Shown here one piece after another: positions 43,064-63,008 of a stretch of DNA of 64,000 nt (position 1 is the stretch's first letter; each line of letters opens with the position of its first letter). The notes under the pieces are model-generated. The model did no database searches. It saw nothing but the letters and a program-made list of their open reading frames with translations, and was not told where the DNA came from. The position numbers were made by a program, and so were the translations under genes. The stretch is from Carcharhinus amblyrhynchos (taxonomy: Eukaryota), in NCBI GenBank assembly GCA_965287045.1, contig OZ336881.1, positions 63,736,001 through 63,800,000 on the forward strand, given 5' to 3'.

Positions 43064-43150
43064 CATGATATGGGTATGCCGGCGTTGGATTGGGGTAAAC
43101 ACAGTAAAAAGTCGGTTGGACTGAAACCTGGTGTTGTCAGACTTCTTACT
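43064..43150 (-). mobile_element. PLE-derived short element, family A (truncated, with inversion)
   Basis: The tail GATATGGGTATGCCGGCGTTGGATTGGGGTAAACACAGTAAAAAGTC is joined to an inverted GTTGGACTGAAACCTGGTGTTGTCAGACTTCTTACT. TSD TTTGAATAATGT/TTTGAACAATGT at 43052-63 and 43150-61. Confidence 0.75.
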
Positions 43151-43360
43151 TTGAACAATGTGTCATTGATCAATGGGAATACTTGATCTATTTAGTACGC
43201 GGACTTCACCTGCATCAAGGGTAGATGTAGTTCTTTAGGCTTCTTGCAGCTCATCAAGGAGAGATTATATCAAAGATAAAAACAATTAAGGGAGGCATTG
43301 AGAAACCACTTCACCTATTCTTTCAACTGGCTCAAGAATCCCATGTGTGAGGTTTGTGTT

Positions 43361-43495
43361 GAGCTCTGACAAAGGGTCATCCAGACCTAAAATGCTACCT
43401 CTATTTTCTCTCCTCAGGTGCTGTCAGACCTACTGTGATTTTGCAGCATTTTCTGTTTTTGTTTCAGATTCCAGCACCTGCAATATTTTGTCTTT
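43361..43495 (+). mobile_element. PLE-derived short element, family B, with decayed hammerhead motif
   Basis: GAGCT-CTGACAA-AGGGTC-ATCCA-GACCT-AAAA-TG-CT-ACCTC, then CTCTCC.CAG.TGCTGTCAGACC...CAGCATTTTCTGTTTTTG..TCAGATTCCAGCA.CTGCA.TATTTTG. Related copies lie at 46185 and 56338/57501. Confidence 0.6.
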
Positions 43496-44514
43496 ATAAT
43501 ATCTGAATGAGTATATATTTATCTCAAAAATGAAGTTTATTATCTGGTAGCATATAAAAATGTGGCAGTGTGTGTTAACACTCAGTAGTATCCCACTGAA
43601 GTGTGACTATTAAACTGCCATTTCAATACATAATGTTTTGGGGTCATTAAGATTTTTATTGCTATTTCAGTCAATGAACAGACTAGAGCAGGCCCTCAGT
43701 AACAGAGAAAAAACACCTTTAATGTATAAACATTTAGAATATGAATATAGGATCAGGAGTTGGTAAACCATCCTTTAATATGTTGCACCGTTCAGTGAGA
43801 TAGTGGCTGATTTGTACCTTAACCCAAATTTGTTGTCTTCCGTCCATATATTTTTATAGTTGTCCTACTGCAGCAAAAAAAAAGCTATTGATCTCAGATT
43901 TAAAACAATTACTTGACTTATCATTGACTGCTCATTGTAGTGCAGATTTCCATGTTTCTACCGCTCTTTGAATTATAGATTACACTCATAGACCATGTAC
44001 ACTCACAGATTCTTTGCATGAAGAAATGACCTGGCTCTGATTTTATGGTGACACCCCTGTCCCCCATTCCCCACCAGCAAGAAAGAGGTGCACTTATTAT
44101 AGCCTATCAATTCTTATCAAAATACAAAAACGCCAATCGAATCATCCCCTGTCGTTTTATATCCAATGAGATGCAAGCTCGGTTAATGTAACCTTTCTCA
44201 ATAATCTATAGCATTCAGTTGAATCTGTGCTGCACTTCTTTCAAGGCCAATGTATCATTTCTAAGTCACAGTGCCCAGAGCCATACACAATAGTCCAAAC
44301 ATGAAATAACTAGGCTTTATATAGCTCTAGCAAAACATCAACCCCAAGATATTCTAAGACTCTCATTATGAAAATTAATATTCCATCAACTTTTAGATTA
44401 TTTTTGTATCATTTTAGTGAGGTGTTTTCATGGACTTCCACTGTTCCTAGTTTTTCATCATTTAAATAATATTTTGGTCTGTTCTTTTCTGGTCCAAATT
44501 GGGTGACCCTATTC

Positions 44515-46040
44515 TTTGATTTGATTTATTATTGTCACATGTATACAGTGAAAAGTATTGTTTCTTACGTGGTATACAAAGCATACCATTCATAGAGAAG
44601 GAAACAAGAGAGTGCAGAATGTAGTGTTACTGTCATAGCTAGGGTGTAAAGAAAGATCAACTTTAATGGACTTTGATCCATTCAAAATCTGATGGCTACA
44701 GGGAAGAAGCTGTTCTTGAGTCAGTTGGTATGTGATCTCAGACATCTGTATCTTTTTCTCAATGGAATAAGGTGGAAGAGAGAAAGCCCAGTGTGCGTTG
44801 GGTCCTTAATTATGCTGGCTGCTTTGTCGAGGCAGCAGGAAGTGTACACAGAGTCAGTGGATGGGAGGCTAGTTTGCGTGATCAATTGGTCTACATTCAC
44901 GACCTTTTGTAATTACTTGCAGTCTTGGGCAGAGCAGGAGCCATACCAAGCTTTGATACAACCAGAAAGAATGCTTTCTATGGTGTATCTGTAAAAGTTG
45001 GTGAGAATTGTTGCTGACATGCCAAATTTCCTTAGTCTTCTGAGGAAGTAGAGGTATTTATGGGCTTTCTTAACTATAGTGTCAGCATGGGGGGATCAGG
45101 ACAGGCTGTTTGTGATCTGGACACCTAAAAACTTGAAGCTTTCGATCATTTCTACTTTTTCCCCGTTGATGTAAACAGGGGCATGTTCTCCACTACTCTT
45201 CCTAAAGTCAATGACAATCTCCTTCATTTTGTTGACATTGAGGGCGAGATTATTGTTGCTGCATCAGTTCACCAGATTTTCTGTCTCATTCCTGTACACT
45301 GTCTCATCTTTGTTTGAGATCCTACCCACTATGGTGGTGTTGCCAGCAAATTTGAAAACTGCATTGGAAGGGAATTTGGCCATATAGTCATAGGTGTACA
45401 AGTAGTCTAGTAGGGGGCTGAGAACACAGCCTTGTAGGACACCAGTGTTGAGGATGATTGTGGAGGAGGTGTTGTTGCTTATCCTTACTGAATGAGGTCT
45501 GTGGGTTAGGAAGTTCAGGATCCAGTCATAGAGGGAGGAGCTGAGACCCAGGCCATGGAGTTTGGAGAAGAGTTTTGTAGGAATAATGGTGTTAAAGGCT
45601 GAACTATAGTCAAAAATAGGAATCTGACATAGGTGTCTTTGTTATCGAGCTGTTCCAGGTTTGAGTGCAGGGCCAGGGAGATGGTGCCTGCTGTGGACCT
45701 GTTGCTGTGGTAAGCAAACTATGGTGGATTCAGGTAGTCCAGGAGGCAGGAATTGATTGGTGCCATGACTAACCTTTGGAAGCACTTCATAATGATGGAT
45801 TTCAGAGCCACCGGACGATAGTCATTAAGGTACGCTGCTTGGCTTTTCTTAGGTACAGGGACAATGGTCATCTACTTGAAGCAGATGGAGACCTCAGATT
45901 GTTGTAAAGAGAGGTTGAAGATGTCTGCAAACACCCCTGCCAGCTGATCCACACAGGATATGAGTGTTTGTCCTAGTACTCCATCCAGGCCAGTCGCTTT
46001 CCATGGGTTGACCTTTGAGAAAGCTGCTCTGACCTGTGTC
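44515..46040 (-). mobile_element. Rex1/Babar-like non-LTR retrotransposon, 5'-truncated, inactive RT
   Basis: The minus strand at ~45470-45310 translates to [53 protein letters not shown], with FADD mutated to FAGN. It has an (AAATC)n tail and an imperfect TSD TGACCCTATTCT/TGACCCACATTCT. Confidence 0.85.
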
Positions 46041-46184
46041 CTGACCCACATTCTTATCTGGGTTGAAATTCATTCACCAGAATGTTTATCACTCCCATAA
46101 TCTATCAGTGTTTCGTTGTAATTTTATGCTCTCATATGCATTACTTACTACACCAGTATCCTTGTACCATCACCAAACTCCCAC

Positions 46185-46316
46185 ATGCAGTGAAAAGCAG
46201 TCAGCTCAAAATATTAACTCTACTTCTCTCCACAGACGCTTAGACAGCTGTGCATTCTCTGCATTTTCTATTTTTCTTTAAGATTTCCAGCATCTGCAGT
46301 ATTTTGCTTTTGCATT
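46185..46316 (+). mobile_element. PLE-derived family B remnant
   Basis: TTAACTCT..TTCTCTCCACAGACGCT...GCATTTTCT.TTTTT...AGATTTCCAGCATCTGCAGTATTTTGC resembles 43395-43495. Confidence 0.6.
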
Positions 46317-46661
46317 TATTGCTCTCTGTTATGTTATCAAAGCCATTGATAGGTATAGTGAACAGTCAAGACCCCAGCACAGACCCGTGTAAGACACCAT
46401 TCCAATTTGAGTGCATATCTTTTAGCCCTATTCTCTGTCTTCTACCGTCTAACCAATCTACTAATCAGGTCAATAATTTACCTTCAATTCCTTGAGTTTT
46501 GATTCCAGCTAACAGTCTCCCACCAGGAACTAGTTGAGAGATACAATATTTCACAAAGACCACCTGGATTTTCCTTCTAAGAAAGCAATAGAAAGTGCAC
46601 AAAGTGGATGAAATGGAGTGAGATCACTTGTGGCCAAAACTATGGCTTCAGCTTCATGTCG

Positions 46662-46878
46662 TGATGTGGAGATGCCTGCACTGGATTGGGTTAAACACAG
46701 TAAGAAGTCTTACAACACCAGGTTAAAGTCCAACAGGTTTATTTGGAGTACTTGCTGCTCCTTCCTCAGGGATCTCCCACTCACCTGACGAAGGAGCAAC
46801 AAGAGCTTCGAAAGCTAGTGGCGTTTGCTACCAAATAAACTTGTTGGACTTTAGTCTGGTGTTGTAAGACTTCTTACT
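46662..46878. mobile_element. PLE-derived short element, family A, fold-back structure
   Basis: A 37-nt tail is followed by 48-bp inverted arms (46699-46746 and 46831-46878) enclosing back-to-back hammerhead motifs. Confidence 0.85.
46782..46820 (+). ncRNA. Minimal type-I hammerhead ribozyme motif with intact core
   Basis: CAC-CUGACGA-A-GGAGC-AACAAGA-GCUUC-GAAA-GC-UA-GUG: stem I CAC/GUG, core CUGANGA and GAAA, stem II GGAGC/GCUUC, palindromic AGCU in place of stem III. Transcription and activity are unknown. Confidence 0.7.
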
Positions 46879-47059
46879 ATATTTAGTTTCATATAACATC
46901 AGTATTGATTCAATCCCTTTACTGTATCCAAGGGATTATGTAGGATGTAAAAATGAACTTAAAGCGGGCCCAGGTTTAGTCTTCAGAATTATAATTCCAC
47001 TCCCCTCACCCCCACCCCCCAGACGCTAATCCCCAAGCAAGTAAAGTTTAATGTCGTCT

Positions 47060-47580
47060 GTGACTTAGTGATCGCATTCTCACTCTCGCCTCTGTGTTAG
47101 AAGGTTGATAATTCAAGCTCACTCCAGAGACCAGAGCACATAACTCAAGCAGTACTGGGGGAGTGCTCAACTGTAGCAAGTGCCACCTTGCTGGTGAGAT
47201 TAAACAGAGGCCCAGTTCACCTGTCGAAGAGGGAAACCTCGAAAGCTTGTGCGTTTACTATCAAATAAATCGGTTGGACTAAAACCTGGTGTAGTCAGAT
47301 TTTTTACTGTGTTTACCCCAATCCAACGCCGGCACATCCACACCAGGAAAAAGATCGCCAGGGCAGTGTTACAAGAAGCGCTGGGGAATTCTGCTGGTAC
47401 TCTGGCCAACATCTAACCCTCAAACAAATGGTTTAATCATCTACTTGATTGCCGTTTCGGAAATCTTGCCACCCGCAAACCGGGTTCTGTCTTTCCTACA
47501 TTAAAACCTCAAAATCATTGAATTGGCCGTAAAGGCTTCGGGAAATCTGTACTGACTATATAAATACAAGCATTTTCTCT
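47060..47580 (+). mobile_element. DeuSINE (SacSINE1-like) tRNA-derived SINE interrupted by a PLE element
   Basis: CACTCTCGCCTCTG.GT.AGAAGGTTG...TTCAAG..CACTCCAGAGAC..GAGCACATAA...CAGTACTG.GGGAGTGCT...TTAAAC.GAGGCCC, resuming GAAG..GGGGAATTCT..TGGT...CTGGCCAACAT and ending CTATATAAAT.CAAG. Confidence 0.7.
47218..47345 (+). mobile_element. PLE-derived family A element with hammerhead motif (one core substitution)
   Basis: CAC-CUGUCGA-A-GAGG-GAAA-CCUC-GAAA-GC-UU-GUG (47218-47251), followed by AATAAA, the family body and the tail CCAACGCCGGCACATCCACACCA. Confidence 0.8.
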
Positions 47581-48989
47581 GAATGGAAGTTCACCGAGTA
47601 GCTCAGTGTCTAATTCAGTTCTACATTTACAGAGCGTGATTTGGAATAAATATTATTGTGCAGCACAATCAAAATACAACGAATTACATAATCCAGCAGT
47701 GATATTTAATCGGAGGGTGATAAAGTACAGATGTTATCCTGTAAAACGCCATCAAACTGTGACAAACTGTGGGTTATTACTTATAACACTCATTCAAAGA
47801 AGGGCAGCATTTAAACCTAAAAACTTAAACGATTCATATCTCCATGTTTCCCAAAGAAAACTGTGAAGTTTACCAGCTATAAGGAATATAACTGTTACAC
47901 ATGACCAAGATCAAAGTTGCACAATTACTCGATAACAAAATGAAATTAATACCATCTCCTTTGAGAGTAAACACGAACATTTGGAGTTAATATTTCTAAC
48001 TCTGAAATTACCCATTTCACAAGCTAATGCTACTGCATCATTTCATTGCGAACATCGATTTCCAAAACGCCTATATAACTTTTGTATGTGTGATACTTGG
48101 GATTTTAATCTCTGCCCTGATAGCATGTATGATGCGTTATCTGAACAAGCCTATGACTCTGCAATGTAGCTGAACTTACAGTGAGCGCTATGCGGCCAGC
48201 GCCCGAAGAAACAGTCACTGGAGGGTGAAACACTCCCACCCTTAATATGCTTAAAGCCAGGCAGGATCCCTCGCGTGAGTTCAGATCCGTAACTTTTAAT
48301 ATGACCGTTATACAGCGGGAAACTAAACTATCTGCCCGCTGGATTAATAACCTCAAGAATCGGAAATACAGAAGTGCGAAGAATAAATGAAGACAAATAA
48401 AATATTTTCTAGCGAATTTACATGCAGCATCGGACAGCACAAAATACGAAGGACTCTGACCTTAAAAAAACAAACTGTTACTGATAGCAAACTTGTTTCA
48501 TTTTTAAATTACAACGCAATTTAAACAAAAACAGCGTTCATGTAATACTGGGATCGAAAGCGGCAAGTGTTTTTTGCTTCTGGTGAGAAAAAGAGAACTT
48601 AATCCAGGGCGGAGATTAAGACTGAAATGATACAATAAAAGTATCATCTTTTGGAGGAGCTGCTATAACATTTCACAGGAGCTGGCTGAAGAGACTGGAA
48701 CGCCATTCACCTCACCATCCTGTCCCGTTTAATTAACTCCGAGACTGGACTTCCCTTAAAAGATATGGTAGGGGGTGGGGGCGCGGAATATACAAGTTCT
48801 GATGAGTTGTTCGCAGATGTTTCTCCAAAAGAAGACAACACTGTAAAGCAGAGAAAATGACCGACATATGGGACGACCCCAGGAAGGGTCAATTCAACAA
48901 AACAATCAAATAAACACACAAGTTCCAGGTCCTTTCATGTTCTGCTGATGATGTCTAAGTAACCAAACGGCGCCCGTCCAGTAAAGGAA

Positions 48990-49027
48990 TGATGTAACCT
49001 GGTGTAACCTGCTGTTGTGAGACTTCT
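48990..49027 (+). mobile_element. 38-bp family A micro-insertion with 13-bp TSD
   Basis: TAACCTGGTG-TAACCTGCTGTTGTGAGACTTCT, flanked by TCCAGTAAAGGAA at 48977-89 and 49028-40. Confidence 0.7.
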
Positions 49028-49514
49028 TCCAGTAAAGGAAGCCAAACTCCAATCTTTCACAGTCTCAACAGAGAACACCTAAATAATCAAGTGGGTTCGG
49101 GCCACCGGGTGGGATCCATTCTCAGAATGAATCTCTTTGGCGGCGTTTTACACCAGCACTTGGCTGTAAGGTCCGAGAGTTCAGTGTGTGCAGGATTCTG
49201 TGAAAGAGAAAGTGTATTCCCTGTGCTTACACAGGGGAGGGGAGCCTACGGGGGTGGAGGATACACTGACACTGGCTCCCGAGGCAGCAGCATGCTCACT
49301 CTGTGGAGGTCAGTAGGCCGTTATTAGCTTATTTAAGCATCTTCTGTGCTGCAAGTATCCGGGGTCTTGCTACTGTATCGAGCGGGGAAATATAATTTGC
49401 TGTTTCCTTTGGGGAGTAAGCAACGCGAGCTGCTCCCTTTAAGTTCCAGTGCGATTGCTAGTTGTCAGAAGGCAGGGCCGCTCAGTGTCAAAACAGTGAC
49501 TGGAAATAGAAGCG

Positions 49515-49870
49515 GAAACAACAAAGAGAAACACACAGGGCAAGAGAGGAGAAAGAGAGGGAAAAGACACAGGCAGAGGTGAGGACGGGGGGTGTGCTGC
49601 GAACGGGCGTGAGAGGCGAGTGGAGGCAGGATACAACTGAGTGAGTGAGCAACAGAGGACAGAGAGGAAGAGAGAAGGAGGAAAAGTCTGGGGCACAGAC
49701 ACAAGTAATGGAAGCGACACAGAGATGAAGAGGGAATGAATGGGACAGTGAAAGAGGCACACACGAGGAGACACTGGGCGGTGGGGAGACATACTGACAT
49801 AGGGGGAAATAATGTGAGAGATATGAATGAAAGTGGGAGAAACAGAAAAACAAGTAACCAGAATGACACA
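49515..49870. repeat. GA-rich low-complexity region
   Basis: Purine-skewed GAGA/GAAA runs; the overlapping ORFs are artefacts. Confidence 0.7.
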
Positions 49871-50859
49871 TAAAGATGCATTTTCAGGTAATTAACTGCG
49901 CAGAACCGCGAAGCCAGGTACCTGTGATTTGAGGTGATATATTTAAACACAGGTATGCGTCTGTGGGATGGTAAATGTAAGCATTTTTTACATTTCACTT
50001 CCAGGACAGATCTGGTTTTAAGTGCACTGATTACTGATTGTCACGTGTTAAGGTGATGTACAGCTGCCCTCTCCCAGCACAATCACTTGCAGCATTTCAA
50101 TGGATCTTTGAAAGACGCCAATGTGAGCATGTTCAGGGTAGAATAGACCGAGCTGTCAAGTCCTTCACATTTGATCATATAAGAATGTCGAAAGGGTTGA
50201 ATATAATATGCGAGGGGAACAAAGTTGAAAACTGGTTCCTTGACTAGCAATACCACACATATTTATGTACTTAATACGGTCACACGATTTTGTATGAGCA
50301 TATTACAGCAAAAGCATACTTACTATTCCTGCCTTGAACTGCAGTCGCTCATAACTGACCTATGAAGTCCTTTTCTTTAGCACGAGCTAAAGAAACTATC
50401 GAGTGTTCTTACCAGCTCCAGATGTACTAACAGGCACAGTAAAAAGAATGTTCTCAAGACAGGCACCCACTGCCTAAGGGGCCTCACTTATTCTTTGTGA
50501 TTAAGTAATGCAGTGGTAGCTATTTGATAATGGAAGGCAGCGCATGCCAGACTGGCCTCTTTCACATATGTTCACACGAACATATACATTCAAACACGCA
50601 TAATCAGACATACACACATTTCAGCGGGATTCCCTGGATAGTGAAATCCAATCTGCTCCTTCTTTCTTGTCCCAGGGATGCAGATGCCATTTGAACTGCC
50701 CCTACCTGAGATTAGGTACCTCAATAAAAGAGAAATAAGAAGCATACCTCAGATAGCTGAATCTGGACGTCTTGCAACTTGGTCAGTGCTATGTTTTTCC
50801 TCTATTGAGCTTCTGATCTCAAGCCCATCACAGTGGTGAGGTGAAGGTTGAAAAAAATC

Positions 50860-51290
50860 AGAGAGAGGCCAGTACATCAATGTGATTCAGAATAGCACTG
50901 TTGAAAACATTTAGAGCAAATCATCTCCCCGCAGACTTACCCATGTTAATTCCACAACCCATTAACACAGAGTGGAAATTAAAAGAGTAAATAAACAAAA
51001 CATATTACAACATTAGTTGACCTTAACATGTGTTATTTTCAATGCTACTTCTAGCGAAATAATTTGAAGTTTTTGCAACACTGACAATGTCAGTCATGCT
51101 CTATTTATGTACTTGTAATTCTGATCGTTACATCTGCGTCTGCCACTCCTGTGACCCACAGAATGCATTGCTGAAGGTCAAAGGTCAGTGATATAGATGT
51201 GCAATTTAACATTGACAGGCTGTTAAAACCTGAACATCTTCCTGACAACAAGCATCGAACTATTTCTTTAACAGGGTAGTTTCTTTAGCT
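50860..51290. promoter_or_regulatory. Candidate distal enhancer with a perfect DR1 nuclear-receptor element
   Basis: AGGTCA-A-AGGTCA at 51175-51187, TGACAG at 51213-18, and E-boxes CATCTG/CAGATG nearby. Confidence 0.5.
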
Positions 51291-51589
51291 ACTACATATA
51301 CACTTGAAAATGTACAGCAGCATGGTTGATCACAATGAAATTCACTTGTATTCATGTGGCATTCAAAGGAGCTATCTATGCATTCTCACTCCGCATCACA
51401 AATCAGCTGTCCGTCCACCTGAGCGAACCAACTCTGGAAATATTTGCTGGCACTAAATTGAATTTACTCTCTTAAACTTTGTTCGCAGTTTATTAAGTAA
51501 ATGTGTACTAGCAATTAATAGCATAATGTGGGATGGATTCCAGATGAAAAAAATATACAATTATGCATTGATTAAGATATATAATGGAA

Positions 51590-51862
51590 ACATAGAATCC
51601 TTTCAGTGCAGAAGGAAGCCATTCAGCCCATCAATTTTGCACCGAAACAATCCCACCTAGTCCCTAACCCTGTTTATTAATCCCCCTGACACTAAGGGGC
51701 AATTTAGCATGGCCAATCAACCTAACCCCCACATCTTTGGACTGTGGGAGGAAACCAAAGCACTGAGGGGAAACCCACACAGACATGGGGAAAATATACA
51801 AACTCCACACCTAATGCTGGAATTGAAGCTGGGTCCTTGGCACTGTAAGGCAGCAGTGCCAC
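51590..51862 (-). mobile_element. HE1-type V-SINE (internally deleted)
   Basis: CATAGAATCC...CAGTGCAGAAGGA.GCCATTC.GCCCATC...GGGGCAATTTAGCATGGCCAATC.ACCTAACC..CACATCTTTGGACTGTGGGAGGAAACC, the reverse complement of 60442-60765. Confidence 0.85.
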
Positions 51863-52199
51863 CTGGAATAAAATTGGAAAAATTCTCTGCAGGAAGAGGA
51901 TTGATGGTTATCAATTGTGTAATAAATAGATTGAGGGTGTGATAATTTGTGAAGGAAATGTGATGGTAAAAAAAAAGGTCTTGGATGTGCAAGTTACAAT
52001 AATATTCTGTAGTTTTCACTGATTTTACTTAGAGATAAGAAAGTTTCACATAAATGTGCCTTAGCAAATTAGATGGAGTGCACCATTTCCATGATAGACT
52101 ATTCAGAAGGAATGGATTTGAAATAGAACACCAAAACCATCTATAGAACTGTGTTTATCAGAAGCATGTCAAAGATACATATCATAGTGATTGTCATGT

Positions 52200-52406
52200 A
52201 AATAGAATCACAGAACCATAGGATCCTTCCAATGGAGAAGAGGCCATCAAGTCTGTATTGACTCTCTGACACAGTATCTTACCCAGTTCCACTCCCCTGC
52301 CCTGTCCCTGTAATGTCCATACATTTCCTGTGGTTAATCCATCCAACCTACACATTTTGGGACACAGGTGCCATTTAGCATGGCTAACCCACCTAACCTG
52401 CACATC
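52200..52406 (-). mobile_element. HE1-type SINE, 3' half
   Basis: ATAGAATC tail followed by ...ATTTAGCATGGCTAA.CCACCTAACCTGCACATCT. Confidence 0.75.
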
Positions 52407-52945
52407 TAGTTTAGTTGTTATGAGGGCATCATTACAGGAGCAATTACTCAGAAGGAAAGATTCCATAAGAAGGTCATGGGAAAATAGAAGGCAATTCAGG
52501 CACTTAAGGGGTGTAAAATCAATAAGGAGAAGGTGGGTCTCTACTTAGTGTTGATAAGGCACCAGTTCCAGATGGGATGCATCCAAGAATACTGAGGGGA
52601 GTGGAAATGGAAATTACAAAGGTGCTAGTCATAATCATACAGTCTTCCTTAGACCCAGGAGTGGTACCAGAGGACCAGAGGACACAGATTTAAGGGAATT
52701 GGCAAAATAAGGAGTGGTGACATGAGAAGAAATGTTTTCACACAGAGTGATTAGGATCTGGAATGTACTGCTTGACAGTGTAGTGAAGGTAGGTTCAATT
52801 GAGGCTTTCAAGACTGTTACCTGAAAAAGCTGAATGTGCAAGGCTATGGGGAAGGGGCAGATTATATTGCTCCTACTCAGAACCGCGCAAGCACAATAGG
52901 CTGAACGGCCTCATTCTATGCTGTAATAATTCCGTGCTTCTGCGA
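52407..52945 (+). mobile_element. Rearranged CR1 fragments
   Basis: GATGGGATGCATCCAAGAATACTGAGGG (PDGMHPRIL-like), then CACAGATTTAAG...CACACAGAGTG.TTAGGATCTGGAATG..CTG and a 3' UTR. Confidence 0.7.
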
Positions 52946-53009
52946 AAAAGAGCCTGTTAATTATTTGTGACAATATTAGTTAAATAAATTATGCTAGTCA
53001 GTACACATG

Positions 53010-53225
53010 GAGAATTCTCTGTTTTTCTTTGACAGTGCCATTGACTCTTTAACATACATCCAGGCCAGCAGGATAAGCAGACAGGGACTTAATTTTACAT
53101 TTCATTGGTTTCATACTGATTTTAACATTCCCTTTACTTGGCACTGGTGACATTGTGGATTATTTGAACTTGAACCCACAACCTACTGACACAGAGATGA
53201 ATGCACAACAAACTGGGATAAGTTG
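53010..53225 (-). mobile_element. Decayed DeuSINE remnant
   Basis: AGTGCCAT.G..TCTTT.ACAT...GCAGACAGGG.CTT..TTT.ACAT.TCAT...CTTGAACCCACAACCT.CTGAC.CAGAG. Confidence 0.55.
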
Positions 53226-56200
53226 GGTAAGTCAGAAAGCCTTCTCTCATTCCATGTTTTCTCCAATTTCGAGTGTAAATTCCACATAATTAATAACAAT
53301 CAAGGAACACTCAAGATAAATCCTATCTAAAGTAACGTTGACGTCATATCAATAGTTACATCCTTTGAAGAAAGTCGAATAGTTTTGCAATTTCACATTT
53401 AGTTGTATCTAAAGCTTTGAATCAGTTACTTCCATGAATCAATTACTTCCCCACAACCTCCCCCCCACCCCGCCCAAAAAAAGAAAGGTGTAAGAATAGA
53501 GAAAATGTCCACACACACGATTAAACTATTTAGGAAATAAGCAGGCCCACAACATTTATGGTTCAATGCATGACAATGGCTTTTGGGGTGACATTTAATG
53601 TTTGAAAAAAAATTAAACATGTTCCAATTTTAGTGCTCAAAGTTTGAGTTCTTGCAAGTTCTCCCTACAAATAGTTTTAAAAGGTTTGTCAATAGTAAAA
53701 AGGTCTTTATCGTATTCAGTACTTACTGATATCAGAAATGAATAGTGATTTGGAAATAAATAAATACATCAAAAATAGTTTTTTTTTGGACAATTCATGC
53801 TATGCTTGAGAAGGATTCTTCCATGTGCAGCCAAGATTTGATCTTTGACCTATAATAGTAGGTGCTGATATTCAGAATCTCTTAATAGACTGCTCTGGTT
53901 CAATAATGTCTGATTTTCTGCTGTGATTCAAAGCTGTCAGGATCCTTGGAGAAAAGAGTTGCTTGTATAGTTCAACCATATCAGCACAAAACTGAAGAAT
54001 CAGAAAGTAATCTAACAGTGACTTTATAGTATTGACAGTCTCAGGCCATTATTTCTAAGTGCTTTGACACTACTGAAGTGCATTCAATGACAGATGTGTA
54101 GTTTTTTTCTCTGTTAACTGCGCAAAATGCAACACAGAAACAAGAAATAAGATATGTTCAAGCTATTGGAATATTCTACAGGCCTCCAAATATCTTGTGA
54201 GGGAGAAAGAGAGGAGCAAATCTGCAAGAAAATCACAGAGGTATGCAAGAACTATAGAGTGGGGACATTGGGGGACTTCAATTACCCAAATATTGATTGG
54301 GATAACATTAGACGGAAATGAAAGAGAGGAATTTCTGAAATGTGTTCAGGAAAACTTCCTCAACCAATGCATTTTGAGATCAATTAGCAAGGGGACTTGC
54401 TAGGTCTGGTACTGGGGAATGAGATGGGACAAATGGATAAACTGTCTATGGGAAATCACTTTGGTAAGAATGAACATTGTGTCATAAGTCTTAGATTTGT
54501 GATGGGGAAGAGCAAGGAACAATCTAAAGGAGAACTTCTAAATTAAAAGAGGGCTAACTTCCATGGGATGATTGTTTGATCCGTGGTAAATGGAAGTGGA
54601 GACCAAAAGAATAAATGCAATGGAACAATTACATAAGATATGCAGCACAGAAATAATCCATTCAACCCAACCAGGTCATGGCTGTATTTATAGTCCATTA
54701 AAGCCTCCACCCATATTTCCTCATCTAAATTGATCATCACAATCCTTGATTCCCTTCTCCCTCATATGTCTGTCTAGTTTGCCTTTAAAGGCATCAATGC
54801 TATTCATTTCAACCATTCCCCGTCCTAGTGAGTCCAATTCTCACCACTCTTTGGGTAAAGAAGTTTGTTTTGAATTTGCTGCTGGATTTCTTGGCAACTA
54901 TCTCATAAGTATTCCTTAGGGAGGAGATACTTTAGGTACCAGTTATATCCATTCCAACTAGGGAGGAAGGTGCTGGAACAAAAGCAAATGTTCCTAGGAC
55001 AACAAAGGTGATGGCAACAATGATGAAAAGAAGGAAAGAATGGATGATGCATATCAGGTGAATTCATCAAGTCAGAGCCAAGCCAAATACGATATATTGA
55101 GAATAGATGTGAAGAGGAAGATAAAACTATCAAAGAAAGAATAGGAGAATAGAATGACAGTTAACATAAAAAGGAACAGAAAGATCATCTCCCAATATGT
55201 AAATAATAAGTAGCAAGTGGCAGGGTGGGACCTTTTAGAGATAAGTAAGGTAATATATACTCAGCGGCACAGAGCAAAACTAGAATACTGAATGAATACT
55301 TTGTATTGCTGTTTACTTAAGAAGAGGATTCTAACAAAATATTGATAGAAGCAGACATAGTAGAGGTAATGGATGAGTTGAACATCGTTGGGTAGGATGA
55401 ACTGGGTTACTCAGAGTGGACAAATTGCCTGGTCTGGATAGCTTGCATTCTGGTTGCTAAAGGAAATGGGGATGGAGATAACAGAAGGGCTGACCATTAT
55501 TTTCCAATTTTCCTTAGATATAAGAGAGGTGCCAGAGGTTTGGAGAGAAAGACAAAAGTGACACTCTTTTTTGAGAAAGGGCTGTTCTAGAAACTACACG
55601 CCAGTCAGTTTACCGTAGTGGTGGGTAAGGCTTGAGAAACAATAGTCAGGGGAAAAGTCAACTTGGAGAAGTTTGAGTTAATTAAGGACAGCCAGCACAG
55701 ATTTTTAAAAAGAAAATTGTGCTTGACTAATCTAATTGAATTTTTGATGAAGTAACAGAGTTGTTTCACTTACAGAAGTTGTCCGTATGGATTTAAGTAA
55801 GGGTCGACAAAGTACCATATTAAAGGCTGGTTAACAGTTGAGGCTCACAGACTGGTGGGACCAATGAGACCTTGCATAAAAGAATTGGTTTCAGGACGGG
55901 AAAGAGCAAGTTGTGCTAAATGGTTGTTTTTCAGGCGAGAGGGCAGCAGACAGTGATGTTCTTCAAGGGTCAGTGCTAGGATCAATGATTTTTTGCTACA
56001 TGTAAATAACTCAACTATTGGAATACAAACAAAAATTTCAAAATTTGTTGTAATAACAAATTTGGAGATGTGGCAAATAGTAAGAGTAGTACCAATCATC
56101 TAAAACAGTATATAGGTAGGCTGGCAGAAGGGACAGGTCAGTAGCAGCTGGAGCCTAACACAGAGGAGTGTGAAGTGTTGTATTTTGGCAGAGGGATAGA

Positions 56201-56337
56201 ATGAGGCAATATACACTTAATGACATCATTCTAAAGAATACAGAAACAGAGGGGACCAATGATGTTCATGTGCCTAAATCCTTGAAGATAGCAGGGCATA
56301 TCCAAAGAACAATTAGCGAAGCATATGGGACCTTGGA

Positions 56338-56388
56338 TAAAAATATAAAATGCTGGATAAACTTCAGCAAGTCTGACAGCATTGTGTG
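56338..56388 (-). mobile_element. PLE-derived family B, 3' part (5' part at 57501-57555)
   Basis: AAAATGCTGGA.AAACT.CAGCA.GTCTGACAGCAT is the reverse complement of 43418-43455. Confidence 0.65.
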
Positions 56389-56494
56389 GTGATGTGTGGA
56401 TCAACCAGAGTTTTATAAAGGTTCAGAATAACTTTCTTGCTTTGATACTCGATACCTTTTTTTAGGAAGACCAATATAGGAATTTAGGAAGACC

Positions 56495-57027
56495 TGCGCA
56501 AAGATATTTTGGCCTTGGAGGGAGTACAGAGGAGGTTTACTAGGCTGATACTGGAGTTGAGGGGGTTGAGCTATGAGGAGAGGCTGAATAAACTGGGCTT
56601 GTACTCGTTAGAGTTTAGAAGAATGAGGGGAGATCTCATTGAGACGTATAAGATGATGAATGGGATGGATAGGATAGAGGTGGAGAGACTCTTCCCGCTC
56701 AAAAAAGACAGTAGGACTAGGGGGCACAGCCTCAAGATAAAAGGGGGGCGGTTTAGAACGGAGTTGAGGAGGAACTTCTTCACTCAAAGGGTGGTGAATC
56801 TCTGGAATTCTCTGCCCGTTGAAGTGGTGGAGGCTGCCTCGCTAAATATTTTTAAGACGTGGGTTGATGGGTTTTTGATAAGAGAGGGGATTAAGGGTTA
56901 TGGGGAGAGGGCGGGAAAGTGGAACTGAGCAGCGACAGATCAGCCATGATCTTATTGAATGGTGGGGCAGGCTCGAAGGGCTAGATGGCCTACTCCTGCT
57001 CCTATTTCTTATGTTCTTATGTTCTTA
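56495..57027 (+). mobile_element. Young CR1 (HER1-like) 3' fragment with open ORF2 C-terminus
   Basis: ORF 56509-56928 (LEGVQRRFTRLI...SYEERL..LGLYSLEFRRMRGDLIETYK...RTRGHSLK...FFTQRVVNLWNSLP) and a (TTCTTATG)n tail. Confidence 0.93.
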
Positions 57028-57049
57028 TATATATACATACACCAATGTA

Positions 57050-57500
57050 TGATGTATGAGGAGAGATTGACTAAGTTAGAATTGTTTTCTCTGGAGTTCA
57101 GACGAATGAAGGGGGATCTCATAGAAACTTATAAAATTCTAACTGGACTAGACAGGATGGATGCAGGAAGGATGTTCCTGATTTGGGAGTGTCCTGAACC
57201 AGGTGTCACAGTCTAACGATATAGGATAGACCATTTAGGACGGAGATAAGAAGACACTTCTTCACCCAAAGAGTAGTAAGCCTGTGAAATTCATTACCAC
57301 AGGAACTATTTGATGCCAAAACATCAGATGTACGCAAGAGGTGGCTAGTTATAGCACTTGGGGCAAACAGAATCAAAGATCATGGGGAGAAAGTGGGATT
57401 GAGTTGAACAATCAGCCATGATCATGATGAATGGTAGAGCAGGTTCAAAGGACCAAATGGCCTCCTCCTGTCCCTATCTTCTATAATTCAATGTTTCCAT
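57050..57500 (+). mobile_element. CR1 3' fragment, different subfamily
   Basis: MYEERLTKLELFSLEFRRMKGDLIETYKILTGLDRMDAGRMF followed by a 3' UTR. Confidence 0.88.
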
Positions 57501-57555
57501 GGAGAGTAAAAGGAAATTAACATTTCACGTCCAATATGACTCTTCCTCAAAACTT
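57501..57555 (-). mobile_element. PLE-derived family B, 5' part with decayed hammerhead motif
   Basis: Minus strand reads AGTT-TTGAGGA-AGAGTC-ATATTG-GACGT-GAAA-TG-TT-AATT...CTCTCC. Confidence 0.55.
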
Positions 57556-57979
57556 GGGATCTTGGGATCTTCTTGGGATCTTGGTCTTCCTAAAGAAAGG
57601 TATTAAGTATCAAAGCAAGAAAGTTATTTTGAATGTTTATAAAACTCTGGTTGAGCCACAGCAAGAGTATTGCATCTTGTTCTAGTCACCACATTTTATA
57701 AAGGTGTAAAGATCCTTGAGAGGGTGTAGAAAAAAAAATCAGAGTGGTTCCAGGGATGAGAGACTTTGTCTACAAGGTTAAGTTGGAAAAGCTGATGTCA
57801 TTCACTTGGAGCAAAGAAGATTTAGGGAAGATCTGATAGAATATACAAGATTATGAAAGGTTCAGATAAGGCAGATAAAGAAAAGCCATTAACTGATCAT
57901 ACAAGGAATTGGAGGTTTAAGATTTTTGACAAAAAATGCAGGGTCGTTGATGTAGATGTGAGGAAGAACTTTATTATGC

Positions 57980-58835
57980 TTTTTCTTTATTCTTTGATGG
58001 GATGTGCATGTCACAGGCCAGTATTTGTTGCCTATCACTAATTGCCCTTGAACTGGATGGCTTGCTCAGCCATTTCAGAAGTCAAGTAAGAGTCAACCAT
58101 AGTGCTCTGGTTCTGGAGTAGGCCAAACCAGCTTAGGATGGCAGAGCTGAGATGAGGGGGTTGGACTATGAAGAGAGACTAAATAGACTAGGTCTGTACT
58201 CGTTGGAGTTTAGAGGATGAGGGGGGATCTTATAGAGACGTATAAGATAATGAAGGGGATGGATAGGGTAGAGGTAGAGAGATTCTTCCTGCTTAGAAAG
58301 GATAGCAGAACTAGAGGGCACAGCCTCAAGATAAGGGGGGGGGCAGTTTAGATTGGAGTTGAGGAGGAACTTCTTCACTCAAAGGGTGGTGAATCTCTGG
58401 AATTCTCTGCCCATTGAAGTGGTGGAGGCTACCTCGCTAAACATATTTAAGTCACGGGTGGATAGGTTTTTGACAGACAAGGGAATTAAGGGTTATGGGG
58501 AAAAAGCAGGAAAGTGGAAAAGAGCCACTTCAGATCAGCCATGATCTTATTGAATGGCGGGGCAGGCTCGAGGGGCTAGATGGCCTACTCCTGCTCCTAT
58601 TTCTTATGTTCTTATGTTCTTAGCTGCTTCCCTAAAAGACATCAGTGAACCTGATGAAGTTTTTATTATAATCGGTGATAGTTTCACGGTCACCATTACT
58701 GAATTTAACTTTCTATTTTGGATGTATTAACTGAATTCAAATTCCACCAGCTGCTCTGGTCAGAATGTTTCCGAAGCATTGGCCTGGGTTTCTGGATTAT
58801 TAGTCCAACACATTACCATTGTGCCACTGCCTCCC
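57980..58835 (-). mobile_element. tRNA-derived SINE split by a young CR1 insertion
   Basis: The minus-strand head GGGAGGCAGTGGCACAATGGTAATGTGTTGGACTAATAATCCAGA is A-box-like. The body GGTTCACTGATGTCTTTTAGGGAAG|CTGCCATCCT continues across the insertion, ending AAGGGCAATTAG...CACATCCCATCAAAGAATAAA. Confidence 0.7.
58146..58622 (+). mobile_element. Young CR1 3' fragment, close relative of 56495-57027
   Basis: Near-identical stretches (GAGTTGAGGAGGAACTTCTTCACTCAAAGGGTGGTGAATCTCTGGAATTCTCTGCCC), a (TTCTTATG)n tail and AGCTG at both junctions. Confidence 0.92.
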
Positions 58836-59158
58836 TGGCACTGAGTGGGAATGACCAAGAATTGGCATGACCTGGAATTGGCCACAAGGGCAGCGGAAGT
58901 TCAGACAGTTAATAATTTTAAAAGGAAATTGGAAGAGCATATAGGGGAAATAAACCTGTAGGGCTACAGGGAGGGGAGGAGGCTGGGGGTGTGGCAATGA
59001 CACTGCATGGGACGAATGGCTGAACGGCTGCTTTGTGTGATACAATGGCTAATGATGTGATAACATGCTTATCCCCAAATGTGCACTCAGATTACAATCA
59101 CTTATTTAACTAAAGTAAAAGCAGATAGCTAGTTCTATGGATCACCATATTATCAGTA

Positions 59159-59300
59159 AGAAGTCTCCACCTGATGAAGGAGCAGCGCTCCAGAAGCTAG
59201 TGGCATTTGCTACCAAATAAACCTGTTGGATTTTAACCTGGTGTTGTGAAACTTCTTACTGTGTTTACCCCAGTCCAATGGCGCATCTCCACATCACGAA
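59159..59300 (+). mobile_element. PLE-derived family A element with hammerhead motif and 16-bp TSD
   Basis: An inverted stub (AGT)AAGAAGTCT, then CAC-CUGAUGA-A-GGAGC-AGC-GCUCC-AGAA-GC-UA-GUG (59168-59202, GAAA altered to AGAA), the body and the tail. TSD CACCATATTATCAGTA at 59143-58 and 59301-16. Confidence 0.85.
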
Positions 59301-59349
59301 CACCATATTATCAGTAGTGCTTGACCAGATTACATAAGATTTATCACTG

Positions 59350-59480
59350 ACATGGATGTAAAATGGGAGTGTGGTTCACAAAGATTTATATAAATGTGCT
59401 TTATATGGCATAATGGGCAAATGGCAGACAGGTTGTGCTGTGGGTTGTGATTTGCATTGATCACTCGCAACAAAAGAACG
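59350..59480. promoter_or_regulatory. Candidate conserved non-coding element
   Basis: ACAAAG (Sox), GATTTAT, ATAATGG, CAAATG and octamer ATTTGCAT in a unique island between TEs. Confidence 0.3.
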
Positions 59481-60029
59481 CAAGTATTGGACAGGCAGGG
59501 AGCTCCAATCCCAGATGAACAATTTTTAACATAAAAAGAACACAGGCGACAACATCGCTACTCTTAGAACATTAAAGTGATTCCATAATGCTTGAAAAGT
59601 TCCCAGGAGATTCACTGGATTATCTGGGCACTGTTAAAATATGGCTTTTAATACACCATTGCAAAACCTAAGCAATATGATACCATCTATTTGAGGTGTT
59701 CTCACTTTAGTATGCCCAGGAGTGAGGATGTCAACCTGACTCCCAAATTACACAAACACTTTTGTTTTGGTGCGCATCCAAAAATGACTTTCATCAAGAC
59801 AGAAACTGTCATGTAATGACACTGTTGAAGAATAAATGGGAAGTAAACATTTTTTAATGGATTTTAAAAAATTATGATTGATCGCGTTTATAACTATATG
59901 CAATTATAAGTCAGCATGCAAATTGCAATGATCAAAACTGAATGCATTTCTCAATTTTTATTTGTAGTGGGTGGGTGTATATAATGCAACAACTTTTTGT
60001 GTGTTGAATCCCTTGTTCCAAGCATTCAA

Positions 60030-60915
60030 ACATATGAATTAGGAGCAGGAATAGGTCACTCAACCACTTGATCCTGCACCACCATTCAAAAAGTCATGGC
60101 TGATCTGATTATGACCTCAATTCTGTCCCTGCCTACTCTTGATAACCTTTTATCCCTTTGTTAATCAAGAGTCTATCCAGCATTAGAAATATTCAAAGAT
60201 TCACCATTCACTGCCTTTTGAGGAAAAGAGTTCCAAAGACTCATGGCCCTCTGTGAGAAAAACATTTCCTCATCTCTGTCTTAAATAAACAACTTTATTT
60301 TTAAACAGTGACACCTAGTTCTGGGTTCTCCCAAAAGTGGAAACATTCTCTCCCCATCCACTCTGTCAAGACCCCTCTGGATCTTAAAGGTTTCAATCTT
60401 ACTCTTTAAATTTCAGTGGGTACAAGTCCAGCCTATTCAACCAGCACAGTGGCACAGTAGTTAGCACTGCTGCCTCACAGCGCCAAGGACATGGGTTCAG
60501 TTCTGGCCTTGGGTCACTGTCAGTGTGGAGTTTGCACATTCTCCCTTTGTCTGCGTGGGCTTCTTCCAGGTGCTCTGGTTTCCTCCCACAGTCCAAAGAT
60601 GTGTGAGTTAGGTTGATTGGCTATGCTAATTTGCCCCTTAGTGTTAGGGACTAACAGTGCAAATATGTGGGGTAATGGGGGTAGGGTCTGAGTGGGATTG
60701 TTGACAGTGCAGGCTCGATGGGCCAAATGGCCTCCTTCTGCACTGTAGGGATTCTATGATTCTAACCTTTCCTCATAAGACAACCTTACCATTCCTGGTA
60801 TAAGCCTAGTAAACCTTCCCTGAACTGCTTCTAATGCATTTATTACCCTTAAGTAAGTGGACCTATACTCTACACTACTCCAGATGTGTTTTCATCAGAG
60901 CCCTATACAACTAAA
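60030..60915 (-). mobile_element. CR1 3' fragment interrupted by an HE1 SINE
   Basis: CATATGAATTAGGAGCAGGA.TAGG.CA...TCATGGCTGATCTG...GAGTTCCAAAGA...GCCTATTCAACC, resuming at CTTTCCTCATAAGACAACC. Confidence 0.85.
60442..60763 (+). mobile_element. Full-length HE1 V-SINE (tRNA-derived)
   Basis: A-box GTGGCACAGTAGTTAGC, B-box GGTTCAGTTC, V-domain GTGGAGTTTGCACATTCTCC...GGTTTCCTCCCACAGTCCAAAGATGTG, a CR1-like tail and a (GATTCTAT) end. Confidence 0.92.
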
Positions 60916-60999
60916 TGGCATTGTCATTTTTGAAAAATAAAGGCAATTATCTGTTTTAATCACAGTATCACCAAATTAGTACAGTTGGGCCAGTCAGGT

Positions 61000-61340
61000 C
61001 ATAGAATTATAGAATCCCTACAGTGTAGAAGGAGGTCATTTGACCATTCAGCCCATCGAGTCCACACTGATTCTCCAAAAGAGCATCTTATCGAGGCCCG
61101 ACACCCACCATGGCTTATCCACCTAACCTACAGATTCTAAGGGGCAATTTAGCGTGGCCAATCCACCTAACCTGCACATCTTATTACCATGAAAGGAAAT
61201 CACAGCACCTGGAGAAAACCCATGCTGACACTGAGAGAAAGTGCAGATTCCATACAGACAGTCACCTGAGGCCGGAATCAAACCCAGGTCCCTGGAACTG
61301 TGAGGCAGCAATGCTCACTATTGTGCCACCATACCACCCG
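61000..61340 (-). mobile_element. HE1 V-SINE
   Basis: Reverse complement of the 60442 copy, including the head GGGTGGTATGGTGGCACAATAGTGAGCATTGCTGCCTCACAG. Confidence 0.88.
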
Positions 61341-62149
61341 TACTAATGATCATTTTCTCGAAATCTATTGAGAACTACTTCCAGACCATCACAACACATC
61401 TTAAATGTTGCTTTCCCAGCTTTTTGCCTGAAAGGCTATTACATGAGATAACTATTCTATTTTTGTAGAATATTGTAGCCTTTTGCTCTTTCTCGCCCAC
61501 ACACTGCCTTTGCCCTATAGTTGCAATTGATAACATTTTGCCTGTGCAATTTCCTCTAAATATTATTATATATTAAAAGTACTGAGCAGATTCCAAAACT
61601 CAATCTGAAAAGATACTGTTAAGATTTATCAATGAGAAATCTTTTTTTTAAATTGTCAATATTTACTTGCCAGTTATAACATACGGGATCAGTTATGCCT
61701 GTAGGTGGGAATATGTTTGACCTGTCACTTAATATTAGCTTTATCACCTGCATAGTATTTTAGTTGGTTGAGAGCTTTTTCCCAGTCTAGAGAAGCAAAA
61801 TCACACCAATACTACCTCTATTCACTGACAGCCATTCACTTCTAATCAGAAACTCCTCGGATGTTCCTGTACTATTTGAAAATCAACACTTAGGTAACTT
61901 ATAAAGCTGACCCTTGACCTCTGTTTCTACTGCAATTTTGCCCATTGAGTCCATCAATCTATTCACTCTTCAGCCCGAACAGTATATCTATCACTGGCCA
62001 CACTATCCCATGGATGCTGCACTATATCACCAACCCAGTCTCCAGTCCCACCTCACTTTGACCAGACTGATGTTAGCATCCAGGCCAGAAACTCCAAGGT
62101 GTTTTATGAAGATAGTCTAGACCCTAAGTTTTATATTTGTTTTTGGCAC

Positions 62150-62843
62150 GGTGAAAATGAAATGTTTCACTCCTGGCATGATTCAAGTAACCCGCTAGGA
62201 AGGTTTTATCAAACAAAGTTTATTTAAGAACACAGTTGAATTATTATAAAAAGATTTAGCATAACTTTTACCAATTATAAGATTTAAACAAGATACAGTA
62301 TAAACCTTAACTGCTAGCTATCTATGTTGTTCCACGTCAAACACTACCTCACAGACATACACCCTTTTCTCGACTTGGCACAAAAAATAAGTATGTTCAC
62401 GTGATGCTGGTTTTGCAGCTTTTTAACATCTGCTTGAATTGATCCTTTGAATATTGGATGAAATCTCTGAGGCTTCCCAGTCTTGGATCTTTCAGAAAGC
62501 ATTGAGAGAGAGAAAGAGAGACTGCCTTCTTCTTCCAGCCTCTAGCAACAACTGGGAACCAAAACTAAAAACTAGGCTTTCCTGTGGAAAACACTAACCC
62601 CACTCATATCACCTGACTGTTAATCATCACCAAATCAAGTTCTAGTCAGCAATCCCCAAAGGACCATAAAACCCCAGAACAGAGCATTAGTCCAGATTAA
62701 AATCAACATGATATACTGCTTCAGCAGCAATAAAGGATACCGGTCACAGAAATCATGGCACCAATAAAATACTGGCGCTGGCTTGAAAAACCTGCAGAGA
62801 AGCACAATGAAAACATATTTCCCAAAGGCAAAGCATCATCACA
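62150..62843 (-). mobile_element. Probable solo LTR (~690 bp)
   Basis: The minus strand begins TGTGATGATG and ends ...CATTTTCAC(C), with AATAAA ~70 nt before the end. No convincing TSD. Confidence 0.4.
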
Positions 62844-62858
62844 CTGACTCAATGTCTG

Positions 62859-63008
62859 GTAAAAAGTCTGACAACACCAGGTTTTAATCCAACCGATTTA
62901 TTTGATAGTAAACGCACTTACTATCAAATAAATCAGTTGGATTAAAACCTGGTGTTGTCAGACTTTTTACTGTGTTTACTCCAGTCCAACGCCGGCATAC
63001 CCACATCA
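62859..63008 (+). mobile_element. PLE-derived family A element forming a 53-bp near-perfect hairpin plus tail
   Basis: Arms at 62859-62911 and 62918-62970 (1 mismatch), loop ACGCAC and a 38-nt tail. TSD TCAATGTCTGG/TCAATGTGTGG. Confidence 0.88.

What the first reader, a model, noticed from the sequence alone, without database searches (positions are those of the whole stretch)
43064..63008. Six family A insertions share one architecture: fixed inversion breakpoint, unpaired tail, long TSDs
Seen: copies lie at 43064, 46662, 47218, 48990, 59159 and 62859. In four of them (43064, 46662, 59159, 62859) an inverted segment ends at the same family position (AGTAAGAAGTC/GACTTCTTACT), always leaving the terminal ~35-38 nt (GTGTTTACCCCAGTCCAACGCCGGCATCTCCACATCA) unpaired. 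Four copies have 11-16-bp TSDs. Established: PLE insertions often show inverted truncated terminal repeats plus a short tail. Inference: the fixed breakpoint records a defined priming, template-jump or fold-back step, and the family behaves as a SINE-like parasite without Pol III boxes. Repeat annotators may mislabel such copies as MITEs.
Basis: partly seen in the sequence, partly recalled or inferred. Interest (0 to 1): 0.72.

Follow-up and report, generated by a model that had tools for sequence, protein, structure and literature searches.

The report
Shark Penelope retrotransposon cuts symmetric targets
These six inserts are shortened copies of a very abundant shark jumping gene; across the genome its two-armed copies sit in a mirror-symmetric target with a 12-base duplication and carry one short and one long end, which likely means a paired enzyme cuts both DNA strands together and starts copying one RNA from two fixed points.

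Summary
The six copies, the shared breakpoint, the unpaired ~37-nt tail and four duplications are real. They are not a SINE: they are 5'-truncated 3' ends of an autonomous Neptune-type Penelope-like element (893-aa RT + GIY-YIG ORF, minimal hammerhead motif, over 64,000 exact end-motif hits). Inverted pLTR plus one-sided tail is published, and the tail's ends match two RT start sites shown in vitro. What I did not find in print: (1) two-armed insertions pair one short (S) with one tail (T) end in 92 of 93 classifiable cases, and 26 of 26 in a hold-out; (2) the duplication is nearly fixed at 12 (sometimes 13) bp; (3) it lies in a palindromic site, (C)TG-NN-[12]-NN-CA(G): both half-sites in 22 of 26 sites against 0.6% background, and CA over TG 1,545:68, 406:46 and 1,180:147 genome-wide. 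Best reading: concerted staggered nicking by two endonuclease domains and twin priming at two fixed RNA sites. This scan noted the twin-priming idea before in other shark genomes; two look-ups found no note of the target motif.

The parts
43064..43149 (.). Two-armed insertion: tail (T) arm on minus strand ending at the ORF start codon, joined to a plus-strand arm ending at S
43047..43063 (+). Left target half-site CTG (43047-49), 2 nt, left copy of 12-bp duplication (43052-63)
43150..43165 (+). Right copy of duplication (43150-61), 2 nt, half-site CA (43164-65)
46660..46881 (.). Old-subfamily two-armed insertion: T arm minus, S arm plus; decayed 13-bp duplication 46647-59/46882-94 (10 of 13) with TG at 46643-44 and CA at 46897-98
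   Evidence: duplication read by hand
46782..46820 (+). Minimal type I hammerhead motif (CTGACGA, stem II, GAAA, palindromic AGCT); activity not tested
   Evidence: motif as in PMC4209133
47216..47345 (+). Single-armed T-ended copy, no duplication; CAG half-site at 47359-61; hammerhead core altered
48990..49028 (.). Minimal two-armed insertion: 6-nt T arm plus short S arm; 12-bp exact duplication 48978-89/49029-40; CA at 49043-44, left half-site not met
59159..59296 (.). Old-subfamily insertion: 11-nt inverted S arm plus T-ended plus-strand arm with altered hammerhead core (59167-59203); 16-nt exact flanking repeat; CAG at 59312-14; left half-site not cleanly met
62859..63008 (.). Young-subfamily two-armed insertion: S arm minus (5' end at the predicted hammerhead cut site), T arm plus; duplication 62849-59/63006-16; CTG at 62844-46, CA at 63020-21

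Best explanation
The copies are truncated insertions of an autonomous Neptune-type Penelope-like element, likely laid down by a paired enzyme that is predicted to nick both target strands 12 nt apart at a symmetric (C)TG-N16-CA(G) site and to prime reverse transcription from both nicks, once at the tail end and once 37 nt further in. SHOWN: parent identity; two 3'-end classes (T = the ORF start codon, S = about 37 nt upstream); S+T pairing; 12(13)-bp duplication; symmetric target; 1-2 nt target-RNA microhomology; same sequence variant on both arms; coupled arm lengths. INFERRED: each GIY-YIG domain nicks 2 nt 5' of CA(G) on its own strand, giving 12-nt 3' overhangs; both RTs use one RNA, so they cannot share a start site; the leading S-primed RT usually gets further, the trailing T-primed RT displaces it or stalls just past S; the two cDNA ends are joined head to head, often by 1-3 nt microhomology; many cDNAs run off near the RNA 5' end at about -135, which makes the 100-250 bp stubs; single-armed copies without duplication arise when one priming fails or one arm is later lost.
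For: Parent: homology upstream of the stubs runs into EN and RT; L134 holds a 893-aa ORF starting at the tail end; RVT_1 hit, GIY-YIG in 34 of 44 aligned relatives; best fold matches are telomerase RTs. Pairing: of 119 head-to-head insertions 92 S+T, 1 T+T, 0 S+S, 26 with an unclassifiable end; hold-out of 40: 26 S+T, 0 S+S or T+T, 2 unclassifiable, 12 single. Duplication: exact match of 12 or more in 47 of 56 young S+T insertions (12 in 26, 13 in 11), 2 of 38 young singles, at most 7 in 600 shuffled pairs. Target: in 26 exact-12 sites T-4 24, G-3 25, C+14 25, A+15 25, C-5 19, G+16 19; both half-sites 22 of 26, background 0.6%; spacing 12 fits 35 of 50, 13 fits 9 of 22, 11 fits 4 of 53, 14 fits 0 of 10; hold-out 17 of 23 at 12 or 13. 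Genome-wide CA vs TG 14 nt past the end: young S 1,545 vs 68 (about 4,000 such ends), young T 406 vs 46, old S 1,180 vs 147. Microhomology mean 1.67 (S) and 1.12 (T) vs 0.49 and 0.41 shuffled. One template: stem-II variant identical on both arms in 29 of 37, 3.8 expected; in 2 mixed tandems the inverted arm matches the terminal joint. Arm 5' ends within 20 nt in 23 of 51 (8.8 expected) and 5 of 21 long ones (0.6 expected); S arm longer in 34 vs 12 of 47. In vitro a lizard PLE cuts and extends both strands, starts at two sites bounding the tail and is modelled as a dimer (PMC11167929).
Against: No biochemistry on this protein and no empty orthologous sites. 43% of sampled insertions (91 of 212) are single-armed and only 17 of 37 young single ends have CAG at the expected distance (controls 7 and 4). 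T arm is the longer in 12 of 47 pairs. Start sites scatter over about 8 nt. Same variant on both arms would also follow from fold-back, from one active locus per cell, or from gene conversion. Part of the arm-length coupling is the common pile-up at -140 to -121 (44 of 200 arms). The lizard enzyme prefers ATT, primes without homology and shows no strand difference in start site. Window copies 48990 and 59159 meet only one half-site. Most sampled short copies come from the first 47 Mb of one contig.
Confidence: 0.62

Rival explanations
1. Same concerted cut, but the second arm is mostly made by fold-back: one long cDNA self-primes, copies itself back toward S, and is captured by a short cDNA or by the other overhang (related to the self-priming proposal in PMC3846280).
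For: Arms share variants and often end within 20 nt of each other; 1-3 nt overlaps at many joints; S-longer bias.
Against: Fold-back from T alone needs the T arm to be longer, but S is longer in 34 of 46 and exceeds a full unit in several copies; many pairs differ by 0-4 nt with either sign, too little for a hairpin loop; S-only copies exist.
Confidence: 0.2
2. Concerted symmetric cut and twin priming, but from two RNA molecules, one per subunit, held in different registers.
For: Explains S+T pairing and very unequal arms; strand displacement not needed.
Against: At least 8 stem-II variants are common among young copies, yet arms match in 29 of 37; coupled 5' ends in kilobase arms are easier with one RNA.
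Confidence: 0.12
3. Canonical sequential TPRT: first nick, then a second nick at a variable distance after synthesis (as stated in PMC8557442), with inverted arms as repair by-products.
For: Single-armed copies without duplication; duplications of 11-14 occur.
Against: Near-fixed 12-13 spacing, mirror half-sites on both strands, and strict S+T pairing.
Confidence: 0.04
4. A separate non-autonomous family (SINE-like, retrozyme or MITE) with a fixed structure.
For: Median insertion about 210 bp; pile-up of 5' ends; hammerhead motif; near-fixed duplication in a palindromic site resembles DDE transposons.
Against: Continuous length range to over 5 kb, arms entering the ORF, insertion-specific joints, shared variants with full-length copies, unequal ends, no head-to-tail pLTR-only arrays in the sample.
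Confidence: 0.02

Closest known systems
Poseidon element PAc of Anolis carolinensis (PMC11167929; main text parts 1-2 of 4 read)
   Same: RT + C-terminal GIY-YIG, hammerhead in pLTR, tail bounded by two RT start sites in AC-rich sequence, both strands cut and extended, dimer model.
   Different: PAc prefers ATT, starts 111-118 nt inside the ORF and primes without homology; here T is at the start codon, the target is (C)TG-N16-CA(G), there is 1-2 nt microhomology, and the protein has the Cys linker that Poseidon lacks. Pairing of the two starts within an insertion was not reported in the parts read.
Neptune-clade EN+ PLEs (PMC8557442; introduction and passages read)
   Same: CX2-5CxxC linker, CCHH-type EN, partial tandems, inverted 5'-truncated copy, 30-40 bp tail often at one end only.
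   Different: That paper describes variable TSD length from sequential cleavage and microsatellite bias; here the TSD is nearly fixed and the target is a spaced palindrome in non-repetitive DNA.
Adineta vaga Pen2/Pen2a/Pen3a (PMC3846280; passages read)
   Same: Inverted pLTR, 31-bp tail, 8-10 bp TSDs on inverted copies, no TSD on a direct tandem.
   Different: Low copy, no target consensus given in the passages seen; authors favour self-priming on an antisense template.
LINE-1 twin priming (recalled, no call)
   Same: Second nick primes a second cDNA, giving an inversion joined by microhomology.
   Different: L1's second primer anneals at a variable internal site and arms do not overlap; here both starts are fixed and the arms duplicate each other.
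Non-LTR retrozymes (bioRxiv 10.64898/2026.07.22.740005; abstract, part 1 of 5 and passages read)
   Same: Short pLTR-derived units with type I hammerhead.
   Different: Defined as head-to-tail tandem arrays; these copies are head-to-head or single and are built anew at each insertion.

Membership tests
EN+ Penelope-like element | Single ORF with telomerase-like RT | tested here: met
   893-aa ORF, YIDD at 534, RVT_1 above cutoff; top fold matches are TERT
EN+ Penelope-like element | C-terminal GIY-YIG endonuclease with CCHH and R, H, E, N residues | tested here: met
   Read in P0002 (IVY..C..C..YIG, RMNEH, HFSGH, GLN); Pfam GIY-YIG in 34 of 44 relatives but not in P0002 itself
EN+ Penelope-like element | pLTRs, partial tandems, inverted 5' copy, 30-40 bp tail | tested here: met
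EN+ Penelope-like element | Minimal type I hammerhead motif in the pLTR | tested here: met
   Core present; all 24 stem-II variants pair 3-5 bp; no Rfam hammerhead hit; cleavage not tested
Neptune clade | CX2-5CxxC linker between RT and EN | tested here: met
   Residues 755-763; C755 and C760 invariant in 44 of 44 aligned proteins; shared with Nematis per PMC8557442
Neptune clade | Placement with reference Neptune RTs on a tree | not tested
   No labelled reference sequences were available from the tools
Neptune clade | Microsatellite insertion bias (hypothesised in the literature) | tested here: not met
   26 target sites are diverse, non-repetitive, with TG/CA half-sites
SINE-like non-autonomous family | Discrete master structure distinct from the autonomous partner | tested here: not met
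MITE / DDE transposon | Equal terminal inverted repeats and a transposase parent | tested here: not met
   Ends are S and T, parent is RT-EN
Non-LTR retrozyme | Head-to-tail tandem units each with a hammerhead | tested here: not met
   No pLTR-only tandem arrays among the insertions listed

The most novel reading that the evidence does not exclude
This shark lineage is a retrotransposon that integrates like a dimeric restriction enzyme: two GIY-YIG domains read a spaced palindrome, cut with a fixed 12-nt stagger, and two RTs copy the same RNA from two fixed starts. Twin priming would be the normal pathway, and the long-unexplained inverted pLTR plus one-sided tail of Penelope-like elements would be its direct footprint.
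Probability: 0.55. Interest if true: 0.78.

Novelty: new variant of a known kind. Interest (0 to 1): 0.62.

Why it matters
How Penelope-like elements make inverted repeats and the one-sided tail is stated as open in PMC8557442 and only partly answered in vitro in PMC11167929. This family gives exact predictions (nick 2 nt 5' of CA(G) on each strand, 12-nt 3' overhangs, one S and one T start per event) and young intact ORFs with which to test them. A retroelement that writes cDNA from both ends of a defined staggered cut is also of interest for genome-writing tools. For annotation, about 10^5 such stubs per genome (rough: 6 in 180 kb untargeted) should be filed as PLE, not MITE or SINE.

Tried and rejected
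Rfam scan: only chance microRNA-hairpin matches, no hammerhead model hit. Solved-structure search by sequence: 0 matches. Homodimer prediction for residues 1-300: no verdict, score 0.52 with a control at 0.36. Sequencing runs: no RNA holder listed, so the RNA start and hammerhead cleavage were not tested. Contigs of runs from six coded organisms cover the junction and depth falls 10-fold or more past the start codon in the four runs; several loose-end consensus rows show CA 12-15 nt out, but agreement is 0.34-0.58, so this is a weak hint only. A stem enclosing S folds in both subfamilies but no better than shuffles (z -0.01 and 0.25). S as an endonuclease cut in the element's own DNA: rejected, S ends spread over -40 to -32 and the junction lacks the spaced palindrome. 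Hammerhead cut site as the main 5' stop: only 3 of 200 arms start at -95, against 44 at -140 to -121. Equal cDNA length for both arms (would give an offset of 38): median offset 14. The binomial test used 23 in error; the hand count is 22 of 26. The first 4.7 Mb of contig C1 hold segmental duplicates; 35 of 247 insertions were dropped by flank similarity, and a few diverged duplicates remain among singles. PMC522041 (Drosophila Penelope endonuclease) is not held.
Full report
Observation. The window is G000:C12:63736001-63800000 of a 2.92-Gb genome. Blastn with the window's own copies finds the six insertions named and no others of this family. Five have a 3' end at both sides; one (47216) is single. 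Four duplications are as described; a fifth, decayed one at 46660 was read by hand. Coordinates below are relative to the A of the ORF start codon (+1).

Identity. In 30 genomic loci fetched with the 59170-59297 stretch, homology continued upstream to variable depth, through a GIY-YIG region into an RT. A protein search gave 13,066 candidates; 12 of the 150 scored lie in open frames of 900 aa or more. One, L134, was read in full: pLTR, 893-aa ORF, pLTR, unit about 3,025 bp. The tail is the 37 nt between the S end and the start codon. The protein has RT motifs, a CX4CxxC linker and a CCHH-type EN; the model (pLDDT 89) matches telomerase RTs best. Closest named proteins are from sharks (84-91%) and turtles (42-45%). 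The pLTR holds a minimal hammerhead motif like those in PMC4209133 (passages); stem II varies between young lineages but pairs in all 24 variants. Exact 25-mers for the old and young subfamily occur 30,999 and 33,227 times (two-armed copies count twice).

Census. From 212 loci and the window, 530 blast chains gave 260 with a junction-type end, 247 away from locus edges and 212 after removing duplicates: 119 head-to-head, 91 single, 2 tail-to-tail. Loci were chosen by end motif, by tail, by RT match or blind; results are given also for the sets not chosen on tail or ORF. Ends are bimodal: 103 S, 86 T, 26 other of 215. Head-to-head copies pair S with T in 92, T with T in 1, S with S in 0; 26 have an unclassifiable end (53, 1, 0 and 18 in the unbiased sets). 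Cryptic arms of 6-25 nt among 'singles' were also of the complementary type (5 seen).

Duplication and target. Of 56 young S+T insertions the longest exact flanking match is 12 in 26, 13 in 11, 14-16 in 10, 11 in 2 and under 10 in 7; of 38 young singles 2 reach 12; 600 shuffled pairs reach at most 7. The 26 sites with exactly 12 were chosen without regard to sequence and show TG at -4/-3 and CA at +14/+15, with C and G next out in 19 each; both half-sites occur in 22 of 26, against 0.6% in 180 kb of untargeted DNA. Spacing tests favour 12, then 13. Whole-genome counts of CA against TG (similar background, 8.5% and 7.5%) 14 nt past an end are 1,545:68, 406:46 and 1,180:147; 38 of the 46 TG controls at T have CA 2-3 nt earlier (hand count). 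A hold-out of 40 consecutive ends, with predictions noted first, gave 26 S+T, no S+S or T+T, 2 unclassifiable and 12 single after inspection of 8 doubtful cases (two queried ends were tails with a mutated first base); 17 of 23 with an exact duplication of 11 or more had both half-sites at spacing 12 or 13, 2 more at 14. All six window copies have the CA half-site at the expected distance on at least one side, three on both.

Priming and template. With the duplication fixed, true ends are -40 to -32 (S) and mostly -3 to +4 (T), and the target matches the RNA just past the start by 1.67 and 1.12 nt on average, against 0.49 and 0.41 shuffled. Both arms carry the same stem-II variant in 29 of 37 young insertions (35 within one edit; 3.8 expected). 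Arm 5' ends correlate (rho 0.75, n 51) and the S arm is longer in 34 of 46. 44 of 200 arms start at -140 to -121, 20-35 nt past a TATA-like TTTATAT; a transcription start there is inferred, not shown.

Mechanism. By standard TPRT geometry a 12-bp duplication with a 3' element end on each side needs a nick on each strand, 12 nt apart, each 2 nt 5' of CA(G). The symmetry points to two endonuclease domains acting together; the strict S+T pairing points to two RTs that cannot use the same start, most simply on one RNA. Fold-back of one cDNA and a two-RNA version remain open (see rivals). The short copies are early-terminated products of the autonomous element.

What is known. Inverted 5'-truncated copy and one-sided tail: PMC8557442 (introduction and passages), PMC3846280 (passages). 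Two RT starts bounding the tail, both strands extended, ATT preference, dimer model: PMC11167929 (parts 1-2 of 4). PMC8557442 states that PLE duplications vary in length through sequential cleavage. PMC2377424 (passages) reports a TATA-less internal promoter for Drosophila Penelope, which does not support my TATA reading. PMC12910113 (passages) had nothing on PLE targets. Nine literature searches found no palindromic PLE target, fixed 12-bp duplication or S+T pairing statistic; subscription papers, Repbase reports and supplements were not seen, so priority is uncertain. Earlier notes of this scan describe the same stubs in other shark genomes and suggest copying from both strands; look-ups for the target motif returned nothing.

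Verdict. The added value is the target-site and pairing rule, which is well supported in this genome and makes the open PLE mechanism testable. Novelty: new variant of a known kind. Interest 0.62.

Noticed in passing
L135, L168: Partial tandems whose inner pLTR carries a different hammerhead stem-II variant from the terminal one, so tandem parents can be mosaics of two lineages.
   Followed up: partly
young copies, hammerhead stem II (e.g. L134:3405-3425): Stem II and its loop differ widely between lineages that are 98-99% identical elsewhere, while pairing is kept.
   Followed up: partly
L150:2735-7236: Four-segment insertion with three joints at the same two element positions (736 and 1186), S and T outer ends and a 12-bp duplication; suggests repeated template switching.
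   Followed up: no
L221: A two-armed stub inserted inside the ORF of another copy of the same family.
   Followed up: no
L210, L166, L183, L103, L190, L035: Several single-armed copies have their 5' end abutting the TTCTTATG-repeat end of a host LINE/SINE-type repeat; possibly later insertions that removed the second arm.
   Followed up: no
G000:C1:0-4.7 Mb and 5.28-5.52 Mb: Large segmental or tandem duplications carry the same insertions several times.
   Followed up: partly
window:1-2200 and 25250-27460: Two degenerate minisatellite arrays (15-25 nt CACT-rich units; 20-nt TTTGG-rich units).
   Followed up: no
window:58757-58833, 60449-60641, 61137-61329, 51684-51864: tRNA-like and other dispersed SINE-like repeats, one pair in inverted orientation.
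   Followed up: no
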